Virus record (IMG/VR): IMGVR_UViG_2585427757_000006
DNA length: 64,000 nt
Source: a virus
Taxonomy: Duplodnaviria > Heunggongvirae > Uroviricota > Caudoviricetes
Strand: one strand, 5' to 3'
The notes under the pieces are model-generated. The model was not told the DNA's origin, did no database searches, and was given only the letters and a program-made list of their open reading frames with translations. Shown one piece after another: positions 21,882-32,291 of the stretch. The translations under genes were made by a program, and so were the position numbers. Position 1 is the stretch's first letter. The number at the start of each line of letters is the position of its first letter.

Positions 21882-22115
21882 TCATTCAGCATTGCAACCG
21901 ATTGATGAGAAAGCACCTACTCCAACCCATCGCCAGTTATAGATGCTACCCGCTTTGTATAAGGTATAGTCGTTCACTTTTTTAACAGCATATATGGGTA
22001 TGACTGTCTCCTGTCCACCAATGATAGCTTCACCATAACATATAGGTGTCGGCAATTTCTGGCAGCCAGTAAGAGAGAGAACAACAGCTATTGTTAGAAA
22101 TAATCTTTTCATCAT
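21882..22115 (-). CDS. small lipoprotein (candidate receptor-blocking superinfection-exclusion protein)
   Basis: 77-aa ORF with signal peptide plus lipobox LTGC; located immediately downstream of tail-fibre genes. Confidence 0.5.
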   Translation of the reverse strand: MMKRLFLTIAVVLSLTGCQKLPTPICYGEAIIGGQETVIPIYAVKKVNDYTLYKAGSIYNWRWVGVGAFSSIGCNAE

Positions 22116-22122
22116 TTACTCA

Positions 22123-22731
22123 TCAGTTATACAGATTTCTATTTATTACCGGTACTCTGCCATTTACGCTAAAACTATGGCCGCCATTAAGTTGGTTTAC
22201 GAATATCGAGCTAACAGTATTTCCATATGCCGCATATCCATAAACCATTGTCATGGCTCCGCCCGGTACTGGAACAGCGAACACATTCGCATATGTTGGG
22301 ATTATCGCTGGAGGGTAATCAAAAACATGCCCTCCAGAGCTGTTCCACTCCGTATTATTAAGAAAGGTAAATGAAAGTGGGATATTTGCCGTATTATAGA
22401 TTTCCCCCCCTTGTGCATTGAAAAAACTCATGCCCCAAGTTTCTTTTTTGGCTATACCTTTCGAAAATACGTATATCGTGGCACTAGAGTCGCTACCCTG
22501 ACCTCCGAAACTGTAAATCACCTGGTTGTTACGCACTATTCTGTTGGCTATTAATGAAACAGCTTTCGAATAGGCAACAAAAATAATCGGTGAACGATCT
22601 GGAGATATTTTGGTGTTAAACTCTGTCCCGCCGGACAAAGAAACAACCTGCTTTCTCTGAAAAACGATAGGAGACAAAGAAGGAGACATCCAGACCTTCC
22701 CGTCAGATCGATATATCTTGCTTCCGTACAT
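22123..22731 (-). CDS. tail-fibre-associated hypothetical protein
   Basis: 202-aa ORF translationally coupled (TAATG) to upstream ORF; Gly/Ser/Asn-rich. Confidence 0.45.
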   Translation of the reverse strand: MYGSKIYRSDGKVWMSPSLSPIVFQRKQVVSLSGGTEFNTKISPDRSPIIFVAYSKAVSLIANRIVRNNQVIYSFGGQGSDSSATIYVFSKGIAKKETWGMSFFNAQGGEIYNTANIPLSFTFLNNTEWNSSGGHVFDYPPAIIPTYANVFAVPVPGGAMTMVYGYAAYGNTVSSIFVNQLNGGHSFSVNGRVPVINRNLYN

Positions 22732-22985
22732 TATTTTTGAAAAACCAATATGTTTAAATTACCACTAGCTCCAGACCACGAAATGGTATTTCCAGAAACC
22801 GTAAGACTTGTGTACTTTCCATTGGTTACGTCCATTATGTAATAGTCGATTCCCAATCCCGCCTCAACCTCATATGTTCTACTTCCTGAACCAGAGGGAG
22901 TAAAATAATCGAGGTAATAAACAGGGGCCAACGCATTGACCATCTCCTGTCTTGATGGCGACCAAACCTGTGCACCATAGCTCAT
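22731..22985 (-). CDS. tail-fibre-associated hypothetical protein
   Basis: 84-aa ORF downstream of side tail fibre. Confidence 0.4.
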   Translation of the reverse strand: MSYGAQVWSPSRQEMVNALAPVYYLDYFTPSGSGSRTYEVEAGLGIDYYIMDVTNGKYTSLTVSGNTISWSGASGNLNILVFQK

Positions 22986-23045: not shown

Positions 23046-26000
23046 TTATTCTTTAGGTGAATTTAACTTCGTTTCAAGCTCCTCAACCCTTTTGGTCAAT
23101 TGCTGAATATGATGAATGAGTGGTACAACCAAACGCTCATACATCACTCCTTCAGCGACCATACCATTTGAGGAAATATCTTCTGGAGAATCATTATTTG
23201 TTGGTTCACGCCAATGGACATATTGCGGGGCAATCTCACCAACCTCTTCAGCAATAAGGCCGTAATACCCCCAATCCTTTCGGTCACCTCGACAAATTGA
23301 ACGATACCAAACAGGTCTTAATGACAAAAGTTCATCAGCATATCGATCTTGTAATGTTTCAATATCCTTTTTATAGCGCCTTGAAGACGTTGAACGCCAA
23401 ACTGTATTGATACCTGGGTTTGGATCAATGTACATATTGGCACCGCTAGTAGTTGTGCCAATATCCCATATAGCAAACCCTCCACTACCGCCTGATTTGA
23501 CAACCAGTGTTTCAGCAACAATATCCAGGTTGCCACTATAGCCTGTCAGTGATGATCTGCTTGCATAGGAGCTTAGAAGGTTTGCTACCTCTGTTTTCGT
23601 GTAAGCATTAAGGTTAGCCGCAGTCAAAGTTATATCGGCAGAGCCATCAAACGCCACACCAGCAATTTTCCTTGCTGTCTGCAATTTTGTGGCGGTTGCG
23701 GCATTACCAGTAGTGTTCTGATTACCAGTTGTATTCACACCAGGGATTGAATCCTTAGCGGTATATACCTGCGCCCACGCTGACCATGCTGCACCTGTGT
23801 TATCTCTTCGTGAGCGAATGAAAACTGGCGCATGTGCACCGCTCGTACCACTCCAGCCAATAAGCAACTCGCCCTCACCAGCAGCACTCGCACCTTTCAT
23901 GTGCAATACGTTGCCATACGTGGTCGGGTAGCTATTGTTGTACGCCTCATACATTTGAATGCCAGCAGTGCCTTGAGTAGAGCCGCTTAACGCCGTAACT
24001 CGGCCACGAGATACCAATGTATTAATGTTGATATCGCCTGAACCATCAAACTTAACACCATTGATGTTTCTCGCTGTTTGCAACTTCGTAGCTGTTGAAG
24101 CATTACCGTTCAAACTACCATTTACGCCACCAGTCACATTTAGTCCATTACCAATTGATACAGCACCGCTGGTATTATTAATTGTAATCGGTCGCAAACC
24201 GTTCCATGAACCTAATGTGTCTCCTGATGCTGTTAGCAGGAAATATGTGTTCGCCCCATCATTACGGATAAAGAACCCATAGTTACCGTAAGCAATGCGG
24301 AAACCATTTGCATATTTTGAAACGATCTCACCAGAAGACGTTACCCCCCCAGATAATGTGCCACCTGAAAGCGGTAATGCTCCTACATCAGAAGCTGTTG
24401 GTTTGTTTCTGGTGTTATAAGAACGACGCCAGCCTGGCGCATAATCACTTCCATTGTACACATAAATAAATTCCGCATTATTAACACCACCATGACCCGA
24501 TGTTGTTGTCGTTGTAACACGAATAGTGTAATGGCTTGTTGCCTTATTACTAAACACCTCAATCACGGAACCAGATAGATCGATCCTACCGCAACCAGTG
24601 TCGTCTATATAATTATTGTTGGCGTAAGCCCATGAGCACCGTGCAATCCAATATTTGTTTGAAAATGCACCCTGATTATTTAGCCACGTTATAAACTGAG
24701 CAGTCGTAAATGCTGTTCCGTTACCACTATTTAACCATCCGGCGGCAGCGGTTGGTGCGTTTATATCAGCCGGCTGAGGCATAAATCCAGTCGTGTAAAC
24801 CTGCTCCCAACCACTTTCAAAACCATAGCCATCTCTTGAGGAACGGTAGAACAGACCACCATTTTTATAGTGAGCTTTAATTTGAAGCGTACGGCAACTA
24901 CCTACACCGGTATAAAAGTTGGCAAGAATATAACTAGCGCCTGCTCTAGTTACATTGTAAGCACCAGATTCAGCATTCCACGGCACGCCACCATCAGCAT
25001 CCGCATATGTATCCGTTGCCCTTCTGGCAAAAGCAGCCACATGCGCGGCGGTTAAAGTGATATCTTTGGAACCATCAAACTCAACACCAGAAACCCGTCT
25101 TGGCGTTTGCAGCTTTGTTGCTGTTAATGCATTACCGTTCAGACTTGCGGACAGTTTGGTTCCAATAACCAGTTCGCCGGTTGCGTTATCAATAGCAAAC
25201 GGTCTTAATGTATTCCAGCCACCATAAACATCACCTTGATTGGTAAGCAGCAGGTAAGTTTTAGCGCCATCATTACGCCATAATGCCCCATACTCCCCAC
25301 CTATCATTCGAATCTGATTACCACCACGCGCTACAATTTCGTCTGTGGCAAAAAGTTTTTTGCACGACAAGTTATCGTTAACGATTAACGAATGAGACTC
25401 ATAAAAACCACGCCCACTCTTAAAATCAAGGATAACGTCCGCCGCGATACATTCAATCGCCGGATTTGTTGCCCCAAACTTATAGGTCGTATCATTAACA
25501 ACGAGATCCGCACCAGGTGCGGATATTGACAGGCCATCTTCAATAAACGCAAAAACAGGGAAAGCAGCACCATCAACATAGAACACAGAGCGCAAATCAT
25601 CGCCCTTATTACTCATCATTATTGAGTGGATGGCTCGTTCATTGTTTTGATATTGCCAGAACATTCCATAAGCATAACGCCCCCTGTCAGTCCAGCCACC
25701 AGGCATAACAAATCCGTTAAACTCGCAGTTATTCATCGGATCGCCTGCGGTTCGCGTTGCCGTGGTGATAATGACCCTTGATGCCAGTTCGCTTACTGAG
25801 CCAGCAGAACGCATAACAACAACAGGGTAATATTTTCCAGATGTTGCACCTGCAGGAGCGTTAACCCGCACATAACGCATACCACGCTTATCAGCAAAGT
25901 CTGTTTTACTGACCGCGTTAATGTTGTTCAGGAAGCGTCCCTTATCGGGTATATCAGCGCCGTTCTGGTCTTTCTGCAGACGTTTCTCTGCATTGTCATA

Positions 26001-27467
26001 GGCTGATTTTACTGCCTTTGGCGTTGCCGCCAGCGTCTCAGACGTACTGTTGGTCGCACTGCTGAGCTGTACTATCCCCTTTTTCGTCGTACTTGCATCC
26101 TCAAGCGCCACGGCGGATGCAATATCCTCTGCCCGTTTTGCCGCTGTCTCGGCGCGCGTTGCCGCGGATTCCGCCGTACTTTTGCTCTGTGCTGCCGCCG
26201 TCGCACTGCCAGCTGCCTCTGTCGCCTTCGTGGATGCTGTCGTGGCGCTGCCCTTCGCTGCGGACGCTTGTCTGGTCGCCTCATCTTTTGAAGCAGACGC
26301 CGATGATGCCGATGACGCTGCCGAACTGGCGGACGATGCGGCTGCCGTTTTTGAGGATTCTGCACGGGTTTCCGACGCTTTCGCGTTCGTTTCGGATGTC
26401 TTCGCTGCGGAAGCAGACCTCGCTGCTGCGCTGGCCTGTTCAGTGGCTTCGCCAGCCTTCGTTGTGGCTGTTGAAGCAGACGATGCGGCACTTTCTGCCG
26501 ATTTTCCGGCGGCGGTGGCACTGGCTGAGGCCTGCCCGGCACTTGTTGACGCGGCACTTGCAGACGACGCAGCCGCTGTTTTTGAGCCTGCCGCAGCCGA
26601 GGCGCTCTGTCCCGCTGCCGTTTCAGAAGACCTGGCGTTCGTCTCGGACGTTTTTGCCGCCTTCGCGGAATTTCCTGCCGCCGTTGCCGAGGAAGCGGCA
26701 TTACTGGCGCTCGAGGCTGCGTTCGTTTCTGATGATTTCGCTGCCTCTTTTGAGGCCGCCGCATCCCGGGCTGAGGTGGCAGCTTCTGACGCCTTCGTGG
26801 TCGCGGTGGATGCAGAAGTGGCTGCAGATTTTTGTGACGCTGCAGCATTCGTTTCAGATTTTTTCGCAGCAGTTGCACTCGCACTTGCGGCACTTTGTGA
26901 GGATGCCGCAGCGGATGCACTTTGAGACGCTTGAGAGGCTTTTTCTCCAGCGGCATTGGCGCTTTTTGCTGCTGCGGCAGCACTGGCCGCCGCCTCACGA
27001 GCTTTGTCGCCAGCAGCATCAATCGCGTCAGTGTTATTTTTATACCACTCAACGTTTTCGTTGTGCTCGTTGACGATCTGCATTAGCGGCTTAACGGTCA
27101 CTTCTGTACCGTCTTCACGCTCGATTGTCACCTCATCCAGCGCAGTCAACCAACTGCGTATGGACTTGGAATCAGCCGACATACGCGACATTAGCGCAGT
27201 AAAACGCGCGCTAAACTGTGTTAAGTCGCCTTCATAGGTCGTAATGATTCGGCACGGAACCTCAGACTGAGTTTCGCCGGTATAAGGTTCTGAGAGAACA
27301 ATATTCGTATCGCTTATTACGCGCTTGATCTCATACAGCTTATTGTCGGGGCCAATGACGATCATCCCCGGCAACACACCATTAGCTGTTACGTTCCAGG
27401 CTGTCCCTGCCCCAACCAGAGTATTGCTACCATGTGTAAATGTGATAGTACCTTCCCTGTACCACAT
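23046..27467 (-). CDS. side tail fibre protein with Ala/Ser/Thr-rich repeat region, phage-fibre repeats and C-terminal S74-type intramolecular chaperone
   Basis: 1473-aa ORF; three copies of ...TATKLQTAR..G..FDGS.DI.. motif; C-terminal DIETLQDRY...GYYGLIAEEV...SSNGMVAEGVMYERL resembles chaperone-of-endosialidase domain. Confidence 0.8.
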   Translation of the reverse strand: MWYREGTITFTHGSNTLVGAGTAWNVTANGVLPGMIVIGPDNKLYEIKRVISDTNIVLSEPYTGETQSEVPCRIITTYEGDLTQFSARFTALMSRMSADSKSIRSWLTALDEVTIEREDGTEVTVKPLMQIVNEHNENVEWYKNNTDAIDAAGDKAREAAASAAAAAKSANAAGEKASQASQSASAAASSQSAASASATAAKKSETNAAASQKSAATSASTATTKASEAATSARDAAASKEAAKSSETNAASSASNAASSATAAGNSAKAAKTSETNARSSETAAGQSASAAAGSKTAAASSASAASTSAGQASASATAAGKSAESAASSASTATTKAGEATEQASAAARSASAAKTSETNAKASETRAESSKTAAASSASSAASSASSASASKDEATRQASAAKGSATTASTKATEAAGSATAAAQSKSTAESAATRAETAAKRAEDIASAVALEDASTTKKGIVQLSSATNSTSETLAATPKAVKSAYDNAEKRLQKDQNGADIPDKGRFLNNINAVSKTDFADKRGMRYVRVNAPAGATSGKYYPVVVMRSAGSVSELASRVIITTATRTAGDPMNNCEFNGFVMPGGWTDRGRYAYGMFWQYQNNERAIHSIMMSNKGDDLRSVFYVDGAAFPVFAFIEDGLSISAPGADLVVNDTTYKFGATNPAIECIAADVILDFKSGRGFYESHSLIVNDNLSCKKLFATDEIVARGGNQIRMIGGEYGALWRNDGAKTYLLLTNQGDVYGGWNTLRPFAIDNATGELVIGTKLSASLNGNALTATKLQTPRRVSGVEFDGSKDITLTAAHVAAFARRATDTYADADGGVPWNAESGAYNVTRAGASYILANFYTGVGSCRTLQIKAHYKNGGLFYRSSRDGYGFESGWEQVYTTGFMPQPADINAPTAAAGWLNSGNGTAFTTAQFITWLNNQGAFSNKYWIARCSWAYANNNYIDDTGCGRIDLSGSVIEVFSNKATSHYTIRVTTTTTSGHGGVNNAEFIYVYNGSDYAPGWRRSYNTRNKPTASDVGALPLSGGTLSGGVTSSGEIVSKYANGFRIAYGNYGFFIRNDGANTYFLLTASGDTLGSWNGLRPITINNTSGAVSIGNGLNVTGGVNGSLNGNASTATKLQTARNINGVKFDGSGDININTLVSRGRVTALSGSTQGTAGIQMYEAYNNSYPTTYGNVLHMKGASAAGEGELLIGWSGTSGAHAPVFIRSRRDNTGAAWSAWAQVYTAKDSIPGVNTTGNQNTTGNAATATKLQTARKIAGVAFDGSADITLTAANLNAYTKTEVANLLSSYASRSSLTGYSGNLDIVAETLVVKSGGSGGFAIWDIGTTTSGANMYIDPNPGINTVWRSTSSRRYKKDIETLQDRYADELLSLRPVWYRSICRGDRKDWGYYGLIAEEVGEIAPQYVHWREPTNNDSPEDISSNGMVAEGVMYERLVVPLIHHIQQLTKRVEELETKLNSPKE

Positions 27468-27560: not shown

Positions 27561-30500
27561 TCACAGACGGCCAATTCTTACTCGTAGGACGTTGTTATCG
27601 TCATAAACGTCAATCCGCTGACCATTTATAACCAATCGCCCATTGCCGCCGCTATTACCGTTGATCTCCAGCGTTCCATTTTTGCCGAACCGCCATCCAG
27701 ATCTACCGCTAACAAAATTGGTAGATTGCAGATCGCCTACTTTTGCATTGGTGATTGTGCCATCCTTGATATACGCTCCATTCATATAGGCGATACTGTT
27801 TTCGATAACAAATGGCGTTGTGATCTTCCCGTTAACAGAGTTGACCAAACCAAACCTGTCCGCCTGAACCAAAAACTGAGATAGCCCAGTGGTGTCAATA
27901 CCAAGCGCAATACCGGCAACATACTTCTGCCCTCCGCTCGTTGAAGTCTCCATTTTCAACGTCCACGCGGTTGACACTTTTTTGTTGGTATCAGCAATAG
28001 CTGTTGCCTGCTGTTGAATTGTCGCGGTATTTCCATTCACCTCTGCTTTCAGAGTATCGATTCGCCCACTCAGAGCATTATCTGCCTGCGTTCTCGCTTT
28101 CGTTTCAGTTGTGACCGCCGCGGAAATGTTGGCTGCCGTTTGAGACTCTAAGTTTGTGATTTGAGTCGCCAATGCAGCATCTTGCTCTGTACGCGTTTTC
28201 GTTTCGGTTGCTACAGCCGCTTTAATATCCTCTTTGTATTGAGAGGTCAGCTTGGTGATCTGAGACGACAACGCCGAGTCAGCATCAGTTCGAGCCTGCG
28301 TTTCAACTGCAACGGCCGCACTAATATCTTTCGCTGTCTGTGCTTTTAAACTTGAAACCTCTTTTGTTAAAGCGGTATCACCATCTGCACGAGCCGTTGT
28401 TTCTCTGGCAAGAGACGCCTTGAGATCATTAGCTTTTGCTGTAAGAGACGTAATCTGGGTAGACAATGCACTATCGGCATCAGTCCTTGCTTTTGTCTCT
28501 ACAGCAACCGCTGCGGCAATATCAGTTCCGGTTTGTGCTCGCAGGCTGTTAATTTCTCGTGAGAGCGCCTGGTCAGCACTTGCTCTGGCCTCCTGCTCCT
28601 GAGTGATGGCAGCGGATATATCACCGTCAACCTTTGACTGAAGCTGGTTTATTTGTTTGGCTAACGCAGAGTCCCCGCTTGCTCGGGCCTCCTGCTCACT
28701 ACGTATTGCAGCAGAAATATCATCATCAACCTTTGCCTGAAGTTGGGTGATCTGGCTTGCCAGAGCCGAATCTTCCGTTACTCGGGCTTCTTGCTCTTCC
28801 TTAATAGCTGCGACGATATCGTTGCTTACTTTCGACTCAAGCTGAGTGATCTGTGTCGTCAGAGCTTCATCGGCAGATGTACGAGCCTCCTGCTCTGTAC
28901 TAATCGCCGCGCTGATATCTCCTTCAAACTTAGATTGCAGCTGAGTGACACGCTTTGCCAACGCTTCATCGCCATCGGCACGAGCGGTGGACTCTTCCAG
29001 AATACTGGCCTTAATGTCTTCGCCAATTTCTACGCGAATTTCCTCAACCTTCGTGGCCATTGCAGACATATCATCAGCAAAGGTTTTCTGTGTTGTTGCG
29101 ATCTTCGCGTTATTGACCATCTGCTTGTGCTGGTCTTCATCTTGACGAAGAGCCAGGTCAATATTTGTTTTGGCCAAAGCCTCAATGTTCGTAGTCAGTT
29201 CTGCACTGGCACGATCGACCTCTGCAACCGTCTTTTTCATTTCTTCAACGGCAGCGGAGCTTTCCTCTACCGTTGACTGCAACACTTCCAGTTGTTTAGC
29301 GTTTGCAGCATCCCCTTCAACACGAGCCTCGCTTTCCTTAGCAATAAGAGCCGCCGCTTCGTCTCTTGCAGCCTTTATTGCCTCGACTGTATTAGCGAGA
29401 GCTTTATCGTGTTCAGATACGGTGTTTTCGATTTCAACAATTGCAGCATCAGTAGCATCAATTTTTTCAAACGCTTCATTGACCTTGTCGATCGTTGCCG
29501 AAACCTCACCTTTAAGCTCGGTTTGTGCGTTCTCCAAAGCATCGCTACGCTCGTTGAATTTTATTTCAAAACCCGCGAGGTTATCGCTGAACTGCTTATC
29601 TAATTCAGCTATATCTTCCTTAACGTCGTTTACCGACCCCTCCAAAGATTCGACGCTCTGGTTGATATGCTCATTTAACTCGTCAACTGCTTCTTGAGAG
29701 ACTTTGCTGTTGATGTCCTCAAGCAGAGCCTGACCAAGCTCGGAAGATGTAATTTTGCCAGTCAGGAACGACAGTACATCGCGAGTTGTCGCCTCTGTTC
29801 CCAAGTTTGAGTTCGGAGGACTTAACATACCTCGCTTGTTCGATGCTCGAACCCAGTAATACCACGTTTCGCTATCCCCAAGACCAGCATGTGTAAAGGT
29901 GGTGCTTGCAGACTCTGCGATCAGTTTCGCCGTATCCAGATTGTTGGTCTGGGATGCGTAAACATTAATGTGATCAAGGTCTACCGAATCTGGATTAACC
30001 CAATTCAGTATCACATTACGATAGTCTCCAACGGCCGTTAATGACGTTGGGGCATCTGGCGGTGTCATTGTGCCCAACACCTGATAAACGGTACTGATAA
30101 TCTCTGTTTTTTTACCGTTGAATGAAACCGCATACAGCTGGAAGTCGTAGCGTCCATTCTCCGCGACATTAACGATTTCGTATTGCTCTTCGGTTACACG
30201 CGCCGATTGCCAGTTCGATACATTGTTTTCATCAGAACGTCGCCAACTGATCCAATACTCTGGAGATTTCCCTTCCCATGTTGCAGTCAGTTTTACTGAC
30301 AGGTTGCCCGGGCTTGAGAGGTAAGTCCCTTCAGTGATTTGCAAATTAGACGGCTTGGAGTAAGTCGGGTCCAATACCGTCGTATTCTGCGGGATAAGCG
30401 TTGCACCATTGTCGATCGCCTCATATTTAGACGGATTGTTTTCAACAGCGGTGATGTCAAAGCTACCCGACGTTTCCCCCTGAGCGATGTTAACGATGCG

Positions 30501-32291
30501 AACGCGCATAGGTTCGAGATCTGGTTCTGTAATTGTCCAGACACCGTTCAAAACAGGCGTTTCCGCTGACGACAGGGCTTTTGAAAACGTAACCTTTGTT
30601 ATGTTTTCGCCAGTTTCAAGAACATCGCGCTCAACGATTTTGCCTTCCTGATTCAATATCCGAATAAAGCTGCCGCTTTTAGCTAACGACACAGGCGCAT
30701 CGAGAGTGATGCTGTTTTTGGTAAACTCCACAATTCGACCGGAGTTACGTTTACCTGCACGATATTTGTTCTGAATCAGAACGGTTTCACCAGGCATCAG
30801 AAATGAGGCGTCTAAGCCGGCAGTAAATGTAATTACATCCGACTCCATTCTGGCGGTATACAAAAGCCACAAACCAACTCGGTGAGCCTGGCCTCGGCTT
30901 GTACATCCAAATGCTACGACTTCTGTTTTACGCTCACCATAACGGCGCATTGCGTCCTGATCTTCAACGTATTCGATGTTTTGCTTATAACCGTCCTCCT
31001 TGTTGTTGTAGGTTACGAGCGCAACGGATGGGCGATCTTTACGCGCAGAACCTTTATAGGTAAACAGTCCATCTTTGACGTTGGAGTTGGTAAACATCAT
31101 TACCGGATCTGATGGGCTATCCTGCATGATGTTAACCATGCCACCAGCCCAAAACACCATGCCGCGGAATGCACCGGCAATATCCTGAATTAATCGGTAT
31201 GCGTCTTGTCGACTGGTGATCTGCGTATTGATTGCAAAGCGTTTCTCTTTACCCCCAAAGCCATCATCGACCTCTTCGTCACAATATCGACCAATCTGGT
31301 AGAGCTGGCCGAGGTCAATCATGGATTCCGACACAAATTGCCCAAGACCATACCGAGTATTGGTAAGCAAATCGTAGAGAATCCACGCAGGGTTTGAAGA
31401 AGACAACAGCTTAAAAGTACCGTCCCATACGCCGACATAAGTATTGGTGTATTCGTTGTAGTTTGACGGTACTCGGATTTTGATACCGCGCACCAAATAC
31501 GAACGGGAAGGCATTGTGCTACCAAACTGCTCTGAATTGACCTTCAAGCCAACAAGAGCAGAGTTAGGGTAGTTCATTGGCGTGTCGACAATCTCACCGA
31601 TGGAATCAACCCATGTGTCGTTGTAGAGGTACTGGCTACTATTATCATCTGTAAGACGAATCACCCTAACCTTGTATGCACGACCAGGCTTAGGCAGTTT
31701 CAGCTCATAGCTACGGTAATACACGCCGGTTTTCTTTGCCGTTAGCGTGATATCAACGCTTTTCTCACCTTCTGCCACTACATCAGAAAATGTTGCGTCT
31801 GCGTTGGCGATCTGGAATTTGTACTTCACCGTAGTGTCATTTGTATCGCCAGAGCTTTTATCAACGCTACGTAAAGAGGGGAATTTCATGATGACACGAA
31901 CGCGATCAGCTTCATCGTTATCGATTGAAACCGTAACGTCGTGGGTTTTTTTAAGGTGAATATTTACGGACTTAGGCGTTTCAACAAAATCAAAACCAGC
32001 CATTGGCGTCTGGTCTTGTGAGCCGTCACGAAAATCCCATGTAATACCGCTGAAGTTGGAAGAGCCATCTTCATTCAAGATCGGTAAATCGTCGATGAAG
32101 ATCGACTTTGCGCCATTTACCAGGCCACCGATAACCCCCTCGCCAAGAAGGTCGAGGATGGCTGCCATAGCACGAGAATTGACAGTATCATCAGCTTCAA
32201 CCGGGGTACGGCTGGAGCTTTTACTTTTCTTGCCACCAGCACCGGCAATAAGAAGCGGTAATTTTTTCTTCTTGAACTGTTCCATGTCCAA
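27561..32291 (-). CDS. gpJ-like host specificity / central tail fibre protein with C-terminal coiled-coil tandem repeats
   Basis: 1576-aa ORF; lambda-J-like N-terminus and position ahead of I/K/L/M homologues; about 12 tandem ~30-aa repeats (EQEAR..AD.AL..QI..L.SKV..DI.AAI). Confidence 0.8.
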   Translation of the reverse strand: MDMEQFKKKKLPLLIAGAGGKKSKSSSRTPVEADDTVNSRAMAAILDLLGEGVIGGLVNGAKSIFIDDLPILNEDGSSNFSGITWDFRDGSQDQTPMAGFDFVETPKSVNIHLKKTHDVTVSIDNDEADRVRVIMKFPSLRSVDKSSGDTNDTTVKYKFQIANADATFSDVVAEGEKSVDITLTAKKTGVYYRSYELKLPKPGRAYKVRVIRLTDDNSSQYLYNDTWVDSIGEIVDTPMNYPNSALVGLKVNSEQFGSTMPSRSYLVRGIKIRVPSNYNEYTNTYVGVWDGTFKLLSSSNPAWILYDLLTNTRYGLGQFVSESMIDLGQLYQIGRYCDEEVDDGFGGKEKRFAINTQITSRQDAYRLIQDIAGAFRGMVFWAGGMVNIMQDSPSDPVMMFTNSNVKDGLFTYKGSARKDRPSVALVTYNNKEDGYKQNIEYVEDQDAMRRYGERKTEVVAFGCTSRGQAHRVGLWLLYTARMESDVITFTAGLDASFLMPGETVLIQNKYRAGKRNSGRIVEFTKNSITLDAPVSLAKSGSFIRILNQEGKIVERDVLETGENITKVTFSKALSSAETPVLNGVWTITEPDLEPMRVRIVNIAQGETSGSFDITAVENNPSKYEAIDNGATLIPQNTTVLDPTYSKPSNLQITEGTYLSSPGNLSVKLTATWEGKSPEYWISWRRSDENNVSNWQSARVTEEQYEIVNVAENGRYDFQLYAVSFNGKKTEIISTVYQVLGTMTPPDAPTSLTAVGDYRNVILNWVNPDSVDLDHINVYASQTNNLDTAKLIAESASTTFTHAGLGDSETWYYWVRASNKRGMLSPPNSNLGTEATTRDVLSFLTGKITSSELGQALLEDINSKVSQEAVDELNEHINQSVESLEGSVNDVKEDIAELDKQFSDNLAGFEIKFNERSDALENAQTELKGEVSATIDKVNEAFEKIDATDAAIVEIENTVSEHDKALANTVEAIKAARDEAAALIAKESEARVEGDAANAKQLEVLQSTVEESSAAVEEMKKTVAEVDRASAELTTNIEALAKTNIDLALRQDEDQHKQMVNNAKIATTQKTFADDMSAMATKVEEIRVEIGEDIKASILEESTARADGDEALAKRVTQLQSKFEGDISAAISTEQEARTSADEALTTQITQLESKVSNDIVAAIKEEQEARVTEDSALASQITQLQAKVDDDISAAIRSEQEARASGDSALAKQINQLQSKVDGDISAAITQEQEARASADQALSREINSLRAQTGTDIAAAVAVETKARTDADSALSTQITSLTAKANDLKASLARETTARADGDTALTKEVSSLKAQTAKDISAAVAVETQARTDADSALSSQITKLTSQYKEDIKAAVATETKTRTEQDAALATQITNLESQTAANISAAVTTETKARTQADNALSGRIDTLKAEVNGNTATIQQQATAIADTNKKVSTAWTLKMETSTSGGQKYVAGIALGIDTTGLSQFLVQADRFGLVNSVNGKITTPFVIENSIAYMNGAYIKDGTITNAKVGDLQSTNFVSGRSGWRFGKNGTLEINGNSGGNGRLVINGQRIDVYDDNNVLRVRIGRL

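What the first reader, a model, noticed from the sequence alone, without database searches (positions are those of the whole stretch)
28090..29000. About 12 tandem ~30-aa coiled-coil repeats inserted in the gpJ-like tail tip protein
The repeated unit (EQEAR..AD.AL..QI..L.SKV..DI.AAI) lengthens the protein to 1576 aa versus about 1130 aa for lambda J. The periodic DNA repeats could expand or contract and alter fibre length or host range.
Basis: seen in the sequence. Interest (0 to 1): 0.45.

Follow-up and report, generated by a model that had tools for sequence, protein, structure and literature searches.

The report
Modular helical shaft of phage tail fibre
The central tail-fibre protein of an E. 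coli phage-plasmid carries ten in-register 33-residue helical modules. Relatives have gained or lost whole modules, and the modules resemble a pyocin coiled coil that refolds to puncture cells, so they offer a natural length series for testing that mechanism.

Summary
The gpJ-like gene (27561..32291, minus strand, 1576 aa) holds 10 contiguous units of 33 aa (one of 32) at aa 1100-1428, window 28008..28994. Two degenerate units lie upstream. Lag-33 identity is 47%, against at most 19% in shuffles.

The element is an SSU5/Cyrano-like phage-plasmid. AlphaFold2 monomer models place the array in one helix of about 557 residues (aa 851-1407), between the FN3 domains and the beta tip domain. Lambda J has 53 residues there.

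Whole units are gained and lost. Near-identical E. coli plasmids carry 9 (two different junctions), 10 (most) or 11 units. More distant relatives carry 1, 4, 5 or 6.

The last units plus the tip domain are homologous to the F-type pyocin central fibre. Its 163-residue coiled coil was reported in 2026 to switch to a beta-prism on cell contact. Every unit here carries the published switch motif SxSxxMxxLxS twice, in opposite orientations. The adjacent side fibre has the pyocin-type N-terminal domain that docks on that shaft.

The verdict is a modular, copy-number-variable version of a known shaft. The fold switch is inferred, not shown.

The parts
27561..32291 (-). Gene for the gpJ-like central fibre / tail tip protein (1576 aa, TTG start; relatives are annotated from the ATG at 32285)
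   Evidence: ORF list. Pfam FNIII-A_GpJ 103-237, Phage-tail_3 359-522, fn3 746-825 and Phage_Tail_Tip 1424-1558. PDB sequence hits to the F2-pyocin fibre, T1 gp33 and lambda J. The gene order TMP-M-L-K-I-J-fibre is seen in relatives.
29817..32291 (-). Hub domains and FN3 domains (aa 1-825), the lambda-J-like tail tip body
   Evidence: Aligns with lambda J 3-836 and with F2-pyocin fibre 9-843 (E 6e-131). Pfam domains.
28071..29741 (-). Predicted continuous alpha-helical shaft, aa 851-1407 (about 557 residues)
   Evidence: AlphaFold2 monomer models with alignments give a helix at 851-1109 and at 1104-1407. The hydrophobic period is 3.55 in aa 861-1097 and 3.65 in the array.
29238..29447 (-). Two degenerate repeat-like units (aa about 949-1018)
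   Evidence: The unit HMM hits aa 986-1015. Reverse/forward motif pairs with the same +15 spacing as in the array occur at 949/964 and 981/996.
28995..29231 (-). Most conserved shaft segment (aa 1021-1099, with the acidic patch LALRQDEDQHKQ); candidate side-fibre docking site (inferred)
   Evidence: 83-96% conserved across six SSU5-like J proteins, while the array is the least conserved part. It is the only stretch that still matches phage SSU5 at the DNA level (query nt 2947-3279). The analogy is to the acidic patch D950-D961 of the pyocin shaft (PMC12874032).
28008..28994 (-). The array: 10 tandem 33-aa units (aa 1100-1428). Unit 1 is 28896-28994, 2 is 28797-28895, 3 is 28698-28796, 4 is 28599-28697, 5 is 28500-28598, 6 is 28404-28499 (32 aa), 7 is 28305-28403, 8 is 28206-28304, 9 is 28107-28205 and 10 is 28008-28106
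   Evidence: Shuffle test. The fold-switch motif occurs twice per unit: the forward copy at columns 11-21 has 100% occupancy and the reverse copy from column 29 to column 6 of the next unit has 98%.
28500..28796 (-). Units 3-5, the stretch where whole-unit gains and losses are seen in near-identical plasmids
   Evidence: Units 3 and 4 are the most alike at the DNA level (69%). A 99-nt deletion lies at the unit 4/5 junction in NZ_CP081792 and at the unit 3/4 junction in NZ_CP027358 and pPEC178_2. Unit 4 is duplicated in pCUPF07B.
27564..28022 (-). Beta-rich tip domain (aa 1424-1576, Pfam Phage_Tail_Tip plus the conserved C-terminal end ...VLRVRIGRL); no lambda-type receptor-binding domain follows
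   Evidence: Pfam. AlphaFold2 predicts strands from aa 1413 onwards. Foldseek matches the lambda central tail fibre 8xcj/8xci and the SU10 tip fibre 7z4b. The C-terminus aligns with the ends of T1 gp33 and the DEV protein.
23046..27467 (-). Side tail fibre gene (1473 aa), immediately downstream of J
   Evidence: ORF. Pfam Gp34_trimer x2 and Peptidase_S74.
27141..27467 (-). [quoted passage not shown]
   Evidence: phmmer against PDB: the best hit is 25ve_A residues 3-106, E 0.0027. A family profile built from 40 homologues scores that pyocin segment at 94.6 bits, E 4e-26 for a PDB-sized search. The domain is conserved in every SSU5-like element examined, whatever the fibre length.

Best explanation

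Shown. Ten 33-residue units (329 aa) lie between a conserved shaft segment and the beta tip domain. The units sit within a predicted single helix of about 557 residues. Whole units are gained and lost in register: 9, 10 or 11 in near-identical E. coli plasmids, and 1, 4, 5 or 6 in more distant relatives. The distal units and the tip domain are homologous to the F-type pyocin central fibre. The neighbouring side fibre has the pyocin-type N-terminal docking domain.

Inferred. The shaft is a three-stranded coiled coil whose core follows an 11/3 (hendecad-like) spacing, because 33 is not a multiple of 7 and the hydrophobic period is 3.65. As a helix the array would be about 49 nm long. The side fibres would dock on the conserved acidic segment just upstream (aa 1021-1099).

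Inferred, and the step I commit to. As in the F7 pyocin, and on a small scale in lambda J residues 841-861, the shaft is metastable. Receptor engagement at the tip would make the helices refold into an antiparallel beta-prism seeded by the tip domain. Each unit would supply one hairpin: the reverse-pattern strand from column 29 to column 6 of the next unit, and the forward-pattern strand at columns 11-21. That would shorten the array from about 49 nm to about 10 nm, pull the tail tip to the membrane and open it. Copy number would then set both the reach and the stroke of the fibre.
For: Repeat and anatomy.

Helix.

Homology to the solved pyocin fibre: query aa 1276-1548 aligns to F2 residues 927-1193, E 1e-21 to 1e-23. 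The pyocin coil itself is built of units of about 32 residues with the same E..AR...D.AL motif.

Switch motif. The published motif SxSxxMxxLxS (PMC12874032) fits every unit twice in opposite orientation, with occupancy 100% and 98%. After column permutation the best score has a 95th percentile of 0.90 and the second-best 0.82. Exact matches are 7.6 per 100 aa in the array, 1.0 in the hub and 0 in the tip.

Check of the mapping. When it is transferred to pyocin numbering, the four residues whose Gln substitution abolished killing (A987, A995, V1010, A1017) fall on S positions. The two control residues (A998, A1011) do not. E1039-R1043 is the E1-R5 pair of the unit (PMC12874032 sections 8 and 38).

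Side fibre. Cryo-EM shows that this domain binds the shaft in F2, F7 and PAO1 pyocins (PMC13455828, PMC12874032, 10.64898/2026.02.24.707460). The side-fibre N-domain and shaft aa 1021-1100 are conserved together.

Copy-number changes.

Lambda precedent for a helix-to-strand change at the junction with the beta-prism: PMC11101478.
Against: No structure exists of any SSU5-like tail tip. The fold switch is an extrapolation from a preprint on a Pseudomonas tailocin.

AlphaFold2 in monomer mode gave only the helical state. I could not run trimer predictions.

A relative with a nearly identical tip domain has a single unit (J of 1229 aa). A long array is therefore not essential, if that element is a working phage.

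The pyocin shaft is described as mostly heptad-based with one stutter, not hendecad-based.

I did not look for PyoF11/PyoF12-like adhesins at the fibre end, so the trigger may differ.

The motif is loose and the region is rich in Ala, Ser and Thr. The column-permutation control allows for this but is not a strict test.

Unit number shows no clear relation to side-fibre length.
Confidence: 0.55

Rival explanations
1. Static spacer. The array is a stable coiled-coil extension that holds the tip domain at a set distance from the tail tip and the side-fibre attachment point. It does not refold. Copy number simply sets the reach through surface layers of different thickness.
For: The helix prediction is confident and is the only state obtained. 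Unit number differs between host genera. Variants with 1 to 11 units all keep the reading frame and the same flanks. Lambda and T5 open their tips without an extensive switch (PMC12874032, discussion).
Against: A static coil does not explain why small residues are kept at six positions per unit in all ten units, in exactly the published switch pattern. Those positions are described as solvent-exposed in the pyocin coiled coil. The homologous pyocin segment does switch, and blocking the switch abolishes killing (PMC12874032).
Confidence: 0.3
2. Multivalent docking platform. Each repeat unit is a binding site for side fibres or another accessory protein, so copy number sets how many appendages the central fibre carries.
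For: In F-type pyocins the side fibres bind the shaft (PMC13455828, PMC12874032). The side fibre here has the same N-terminal domain. In the alignment, the pyocin acidic patch RDDADDG falls opposite an ARADGD unit motif.
Against: The side-fibre N-domain is highly conserved across elements with 1 to 10 units, while the array is the least conserved part of the shaft. The segment just upstream is 83-96% conserved. In pyocins a single short site binds three trimers. The alignment of the acidic patch to a unit has low confidence.
Confidence: 0.1
3. Contingency locus. The DNA repeats slip at high frequency, giving rapid reversible switching of fibre length within a population.
For: Exact one-unit gains and losses occur among plasmids that are 97-99% identical.
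Against: The DNA units are only 38-69% identical, and Tandem Repeats Finder barely detects them. In an evenly spaced sample of 60 of the 168 matching E. coli genomes, 54 have 10 units, 3 have 9 and 1 has 11. The events lie only at the most similar units and use short patches of identity. That pattern fits rare unequal recombination rather than slippage.
Confidence: 0.04

Closest known systems
Central fibre protein of F-type pyocins (PyoF10 / PA0641; PDB 25vf, 25vj, 26ci; He et al. 2026 preprint PMC12874032; Gu et al. 2026 PMC13455828; bioRxiv 10.64898/2026.02.24.707460)
   Same: The domain order is the same: hub, FN3, alpha-helical shaft, beta tip domain. The sequences are homologous over hub and FN3 (E 6e-131) and over the distal shaft plus tip (E about 1e-22). 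The unit motif E..AR...D.AL...I..L is shared, as is the SxSxxMxxLxS pattern in alternating orientation. The partner side fibre has a homologous N-terminal docking domain.
   Different: The pyocin coil has 163 residues, about five degenerate units of period 32. Here there are ten regular units of period 33 plus about 250 further helical residues. Copy-number variation has not been described for pyocins. The pyocin is a tailocin of Pseudomonas, whereas this is a phage-plasmid of Enterobacteriaceae. The pyocin fibre end carries PyoF11/PyoF12, which I did not look for here. The fold switch is demonstrated there and only inferred here.
Lambda gpJ (PDB 8iyk, 8xcg, 8xci, 8xcj; PMC11101478)
   Same: The tail-tip body is homologous, with J 3-836 aligning to query 22-861. 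The beta-sheet prism (central straight fibre) is also homologous, with J 840-971 aligning to query 1420-1549. Lambda has an alpha-helical shaft in the same place, and part of it (residues 841-861) turns into beta strands on LamB binding.
   Different: The lambda shaft has only 53 residues (809-861) and no repeats. Lambda has a C-terminal Ig-like receptor-binding domain that is absent here. Lambda side fibres attach elsewhere, around the distal tail protein in Ur-lambda (PMC13455828).
Phage T1 central fibre protein gp33 (PDB 9l9p; PMC11945409)
   Same: It is the best PDB match for the distal shaft plus tip (E 3e-31). It contains two to three copies of a 33-residue unit (EALSREIDQLKAQIGDDIQASLTDIREVIATET) and has the same C-terminal end.
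   Different: It has far fewer units (1172 aa in all). Its C-terminal 350 residues were not resolved and were only modelled with AlphaFold3 as a fibre of about 37 nm.
J proteins of other SSU5-like phage-plasmids (SSU5, pHCM2, pMT1, Cyrano)
   Same: They are the same gene in the same module, with the same conserved shaft segment, unit type and tip domain.
   Different: They have 4 to 6 units instead of 10. pMT1 has an added C-terminal domain. The Klebsiella members have a quite different giant fibre protein.

Membership tests
Lambda gpJ-like tip attachment / central fibre protein (TipJ) | Hub domains and FN3 domains homologous to gpJ | tested here: met
   Pfam FNIII-A_GpJ, Phage-tail_3 and fn3. 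Lambda J 3-836 aligns to query 22-861, E 3e-127 overall.
Lambda gpJ-like tip attachment / central fibre protein (TipJ) | Position in a lambda-like tail module (TMP, M, L, K, I, then J, then fibre) | tested here: met
   Upstream are a JAB plus NlpC/P60 protein (K-like) and a tail assembly protein (I-like, phrog_32). The full TMP-M-L-K-I-J-fibre order is annotated in relatives.
Lambda gpJ-like tip attachment / central fibre protein (TipJ) | Beta-prism central straight fibre domain (Pfam Phage_Tail_Tip) | tested here: met
   PF09327 at aa 1424-1558, E 1e-41. Foldseek matches 8xcj and 8xci.
Lambda gpJ-like tip attachment / central fibre protein (TipJ) | C-terminal Ig-like receptor-binding domain as in lambda J (about residues 985-1132) | tested here: not met
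   The protein ends about 25 residues after the region that aligns with J 840-971. No alignment to the lambda receptor-binding domain was found.
F-pyocin-type central fibre with a fold-switching coiled-coil shaft | Long alpha-helical shaft between FN3 and the beta tip domain | tested here: met
   Predicted helix at aa 851-1407. Hydrophobic period 3.55-3.65.
F-pyocin-type central fibre with a fold-switching coiled-coil shaft | Sequence homology of the distal shaft and tip to the pyocin fibre | tested here: met
   Query 1276-1548 aligns to F2 residues 927-1193, E 1e-21 to 1e-23.
F-pyocin-type central fibre with a fold-switching coiled-coil shaft | SxSxxMxxLxS strand motif in alternating orientation, with Glu/Asp-Arg i+4 pairs at M positions | tested here: met
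   Occupancy is 100% for the forward copy and 98% for the reverse copy in all ten units, above the column-permutation controls. E1-R5-D9 are invariant. The mapping agrees with the six mutated or control residues of the F7 study.
F-pyocin-type central fibre with a fold-switching coiled-coil shaft | Side fibre whose N-terminal domain docks on the shaft | tested here: inconclusive
   Homology of the N-terminal domain to the F2 side fibre is established. Binding to this shaft is inferred from joint conservation only.
F-pyocin-type central fibre with a fold-switching coiled-coil shaft | Trimeric coiled coil in the resting state and beta-prism after receptor binding | not testable with these tools
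   Only monomer AlphaFold2 was available, and it gave a helix. This needs trimer prediction or cryo-EM.
F-pyocin-type central fibre with a fold-switching coiled-coil shaft | PyoF11/PyoF12-like adhesins bound to the fibre end | not tested
   The genes after the side fibre match an outer membrane protein, a membrane-associated protein and Cor in PHROGs. No direct comparison with PyoF11/PyoF12 was made.
Canonical heptad coiled coil | Hydrophobic period of 3.5 and a repeat length that is a multiple of 7 | tested here: not met
   The array period is 3.65, close to 11/3, and the unit is 33 residues, which is three times 11. The upstream shaft has period 3.55.
Slippage-prone DNA tandem repeat (contingency locus) | Near-identical DNA copies head to tail | tested here: not met
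   Units are 38-69% identical at the DNA level. Tandem Repeats Finder detects 2.2 copies at 76% match.

The most novel reading that the evidence does not exclude
Each 33-residue unit is one beta-hairpin rung of a post-ejection beta-prism. On that reading the central fibre is a quantised spring. Every unit would add about 5 nm of reach in the helical state and about 4 nm of contraction stroke on refolding, along with stored energy. The natural alleles with 1, 4, 5, 6, 9, 10 and 11 units, found in otherwise similar phage-plasmids, would then tune penetration to the envelope or surface-layer thickness of the host. That would be the first case of a viral fold-switch device whose size evolves by gain and loss of modules.
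Probability: 0.3. Interest if true: 0.7.

Novelty: new variant of a known kind. Interest (0 to 1): 0.5.

Why it matters
How non-contractile tails find the energy to breach the cell envelope is an old open question. [quoted passage not shown]

This locus shows the same sequence device in a regular, modular form, with two switch strands per 33-residue unit. Natural alleles with 9, 10 and 11 units occur on backgrounds that are 97-99% identical, and relatives in other hosts carry 1 to 6 units. That gives a ready-made length series for testing whether stroke length and stored energy scale with the number of modules.

The element is also common. It is in 168 of 5,426 complete E. coli genomes, always on plasmids, and related elements include Y. 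pestis pMT1 and S. Typhi pHCM2. Its adsorption apparatus therefore bears on how these phage-plasmids spread.

Tried and rejected
- DNA-level repeat detection almost fails. Tandem Repeats Finder reports only 2.2 copies, because the units have diverged to 38-69% identity. The repeat had to be shown at the protein level.
- Pfam has no family for the unit.
- AlphaFold2 with a 125-sequence alignment was run partly to see whether a beta conformation would appear. Only the helix did, so this neither supports nor excludes the switch.
- Foldseek of that model against the PDB matched only the tip domain. The pyocin entries are not in that library copy.
- I looked for a link between unit number and side-fibre length and found none. 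The pairs are 10 units with 1473 aa, 10 with 876, 6 with 962, 5 with 1260, 5 with 1184, 4 with 850 and 1 with 625.
- I considered that the units themselves are the side-fibre docking sites. I rejected this in favour of the conserved segment upstream.
- A possible similarity between the pyocin acidic patch (ATRDDADD) and LALRQDEDQ was noted by eye only and is a lead, not a test.
- TEM data for Cyrano give a tail of 259 nm against 230 nm expected from the tape measure protein (PMC9928086). They do not resolve the tip fibre.
- The long ORFs on the opposite strand and in other frames at 26050..27073 and 28743..29697 are by-products of the Ala/Ser-rich and repeat coding sequence.
Full report
**1. 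The observation**

The finding lies in a 4,731-nt ORF on the minus strand (27561..32291, 1576 aa, TTG start). Printing the protein in rows of 33 residues shows ten consecutive units from aa 1100 to 1428.

Nine units have 33 residues and unit 6 has 32. The consensus is E-[TQ]-x-A-R-x-x-x-D-x-A-L-x-x-Q-I-T-x-L-x-[SA]-[KQ]-V-x-x-D-I-S-A-A-[IV]-x-x. E1, R5, D9, A11, L12 and L19 are invariant, and mean pairwise identity is 46%.

Identity at lag 33 is 47%, whereas no lag in 2000 shuffles exceeded 19%. Two degenerate units sit further upstream at aa 949-1018.

At the DNA level the copies are only 38-69% identical. Tandem Repeats Finder reports just 2.2 copies. This is an old repeat maintained at the protein level.

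**2. What the gene and the element are**

Pfam finds FNIII-A_GpJ, Phage-tail_3, fn3 and, at aa 1424-1558, Phage_Tail_Tip. The best matches among solved structures are the F2-pyocin tail fibre, phage T1 gp33 and lambda gpJ.

The DNA is 95% identical to Escherichia phages CMS-2020a and Cyrano, and 98-99% identical to many non-mobilizable E. coli plasmids of about 110 kb. Weaker matches include Salmonella phage SSU5. The window therefore comes from an SSU5/Cyrano-like phage-plasmid.

The array is present in 168 of 5,426 complete E. coli genomes, always on a plasmid. Upstream genes are K-like (JAB plus NlpC/P60) and I-like. Relatives show the full order TMP-M-L-K-I-J-fibre.

**3. Anatomy of the fibre**

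Lambda J residues 3-836 align with aa 22-861, and residues 840-971 align with aa 1420-1549. About 560 residues here therefore stand where lambda has its 53-residue alpha-helical shaft (residues 809-861, PMC11101478). The lambda receptor-binding domain is missing.

AlphaFold2 monomer models built with alignments of homologues predict a helix from aa 851 to 1109 (mean pLDDT 85) and from 1104 to 1407. Beta strands follow from 1413 onwards. The beta part matches the lambda central fibre and the SU10 tip fibre in Foldseek.

The hydrophobic period is 3.55 in the upstream shaft and 3.65 in the array. A conserved 33-residue unit cannot keep a heptad register, because 33 is not a multiple of 7. The spacing of the conserved hydrophobic columns (12, 16, 19, 23, 27, 30) fits three hendecads per unit, with a polar third (E1, R5, D9). 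That last step is inference from the sequence.

At about 0.15 nm per residue, the array would be about 49 nm long and the whole shaft about 80 nm, if straight. These lengths are inferences from standard helix geometry.

**4. Copy number in relatives**

Counting units with a profile of the ten units gives the following:

| Element | Contiguous units |
|---|---|
| This window, and a Shigella sonnei plasmid | 10 |
| E. coli plasmid pCUPF07B | 11 |
| Some E. coli plasmids | 9 |
| Y. pestis pMT1 | 6 |
| Phage SSU5, Enterobacter hormaechei, and one E. coli class | 5 |
| S. Typhi pHCM2 | 4 |
| An E. coli class with a 1229-aa J | 1 |

The 1229-aa J has a tip domain nearly identical to the one here.

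Among plasmids 97-99% identical to the window the changes are exact multiples of 99 nt.
- NZ_CP081792 lacks one unit, with the junction between units 4 and 5.
- NZ_CP027358 and pPEC178_2 lack one unit, with the junction between units 3 and 4.
- pCUPF07B has unit 4 duplicated exactly.
- Phage CMS-2020a (CP054387) has one extra unit after unit 1 and lacks one after unit 3.

The events within near-identical plasmids lie in the units that are most alike at the DNA level (69%). An evenly spaced sample of 60 of the 168 E. coli genomes gave 54 with ten units, three with nine and one with eleven. So the array does expand and contract, by rare unequal recombination and not by slippage.

**5. Link to a known mechanism**

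Three 2026 papers describe the F-type pyocin central fibre. It has a trimeric coiled-coil shaft (residues 921-1083) to which the N-terminal domains of the side fibres bind (PMC13455828; 10.64898/2026.02.24.707460). In the F7 pyocin the shaft refolds into a triangular beta-prism on cell contact, opening the tip. Gln substitutions at small residues that pack in the prism corners abolish killing without affecting assembly. Each strand shows the pattern SxSxxMxxLxS, read in the direction of the strand (PMC12874032).

Aa 1276-1548 of this protein align with F2 residues 927-1193. I scanned the ten aligned units for the pattern. It fits at columns 11-21 in the forward sense (100% occupancy), and from column 29 to column 6 of the next unit in the reverse sense (98%). 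These values exceed column-permuted controls, where the 95th percentile is 0.90 for the best fit and 0.82 for the second best. Exact matches are 7.6 per 100 residues in the array, 1.0 in the hub and none in the tip.

As a check, I rebuilt the pyocin numbering from the alignment. Every residue named in the papers has the stated identity. Under the same two-strands-per-unit mapping, the four residues whose substitution blocked killing (A987, A995, V1010, A1017) are S positions. The two control residues (A998, A1011) are not. The salt bridge E1039-R1043 is the E1-R5 pair of the unit.

The pyocin coil is thus about five degenerate units of period 32, and this protein has ten regular units of period 33. 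The preprint does not mention repeats, heptads or SSU5.

**6. The side fibre**

The gene immediately downstream (23046..27467, 1473 aa) has T4 gp34-type trimerisation domains and a C-terminal S74 chaperone. Its first 109 residues have as their best PDB match the N-terminus of the F2-pyocin side fibre (E 0.0027). A profile built from 40 homologues of this domain scores that pyocin segment at 94.6 bits (E 4e-26 for a PDB-sized search).

The domain is conserved in all SSU5-like elements examined, although the rest of the fibre varies from 625 to 1473 aa. Along the shaft, the best conserved stretch is aa 1021-1100 (83-96%, peaking at KTNIDLALRQDEDQHKQMVN), immediately before the array. The array itself is the least conserved part.

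I infer that the side fibres dock on that segment, as they do on the acidic patch D950-D961 of the pyocin shaft. This is not shown.

**7. Best explanation and rivals**

[quoted passage not shown] That much is well supported. The step I commit to, at about even odds, is that the shaft is metastable. On receptor engagement each unit would become one beta hairpin of a prism that grows from the tip domain, shortening the array from about 49 nm to about 10 nm and opening the tip.

The main rival is a purely static spacer. It explains the length variation, but not the strict retention of small residues in the switch pattern.

Two further rivals fit the data poorly. Docking sites on the units themselves are unlikely given the conservation pattern along the shaft. 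A slippage-type contingency locus is unlikely given the divergence of the DNA copies and the predominance of ten units.

An effect of copy number on host range remains untested. I found no relation between unit number and side-fibre length.

**8. Novelty**

The protein family and the shaft are known, and the fold switch was proposed in 2026. Three things appear new here:
- the regular 33-residue modular form of the switch region;
- the mapping of two switch strands per module;
- the documented gain and loss of whole modules, from 1 to 11, among related phage-plasmids.

I rate it a new variant of a known kind, of moderate interest. It offers a natural length series for testing a recently proposed answer to how non-contractile tails penetrate cells.

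Noticed in passing
window 21882..22115 (-), with 22123..22731 (-) and 22731..22985 (-): Just downstream of the side-fibre gene lie three small genes: a 77-aa Cor-like superinfection exclusion protein (phrog_1119, E 8e-30), a membrane-associated moron (phrog_425) and a small 'outer membrane protein' (phrog_557). From my own knowledge, Cor proteins are known from FhuA-dependent phages. The J tip domain here is closest to that of T1 gp33. Together these hint that FhuA may be the receptor.
   Followed up: no
window 23046..27467 (-): The 1473-aa side fibre is a mosaic. It combines a conserved pyocin-type N-terminal domain, a long Ala/Ser-rich stretch that I recognise as very like lambda Stf, two T4 gp34-type trimerisation domains and a C-terminal S74 intramolecular chaperone. 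Relatives keep the first 110 residues and swap the rest, giving fibres of 625-1473 aa.
   Followed up: partly
L010/L011 (K. pneumoniae plasmid NZ_CP101792.1, 103073-111595): The Klebsiella SSU5-like element has a central fibre protein of at least 2840 aa, and the annotated CDS begins at the record end. It has a different coil repeat (...ALSALQNTVTQQGKDISS...) interrupted several times by non-repeat stretches of about 150-250 aa that look like globular inserts. It ends in the same tip domain. Its side fibre has a more distant version of the N-terminal domain.
   Followed up: partly
plasmid hits H28 (NZ_CP035843.1) and H68 (NZ_CP124394.1), within the J gene: In two E. coli plasmids the J gene is interrupted by insertion sequences, IS100 in one and an IS66-family element in the other. 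These copies are probably defective as phages.
   Followed up: no
L007 (Y. pestis pMT, J at locus 3008-7639): The pMT1 J protein (1543 aa) has six units. After the tip domain it carries an extra C-terminal domain that is absent from the window protein. A DUF4376 gene follows before the fibre gene.
   Followed up: no
window 26050..27073 (both strands) and 28743..29697 (+): Several long ORFs overlap the fibre and J genes in other frames or on the opposite strand (291-326 aa and 103-177 aa). They coincide with the Ala/Ser-rich and repeat coding stretches and look like compositional by-products, not genes.
   Followed up: no
window 32285..32291: The longest ORF starts at a TTG. RefSeq annotations of near-identical plasmids start the protein at the ATG two codons downstream (locus position 307 against 301 in L001), giving 1574 aa for the ten-unit form.
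   Followed up: partly
protein hits P0082-P0119 and P0001-P0008: Many database copies of this J protein are partial and break off inside or just before the array. This suggests that short-read assemblies often fail at the repeat, so copy number should be taken only from complete plasmids.
   Followed up: no
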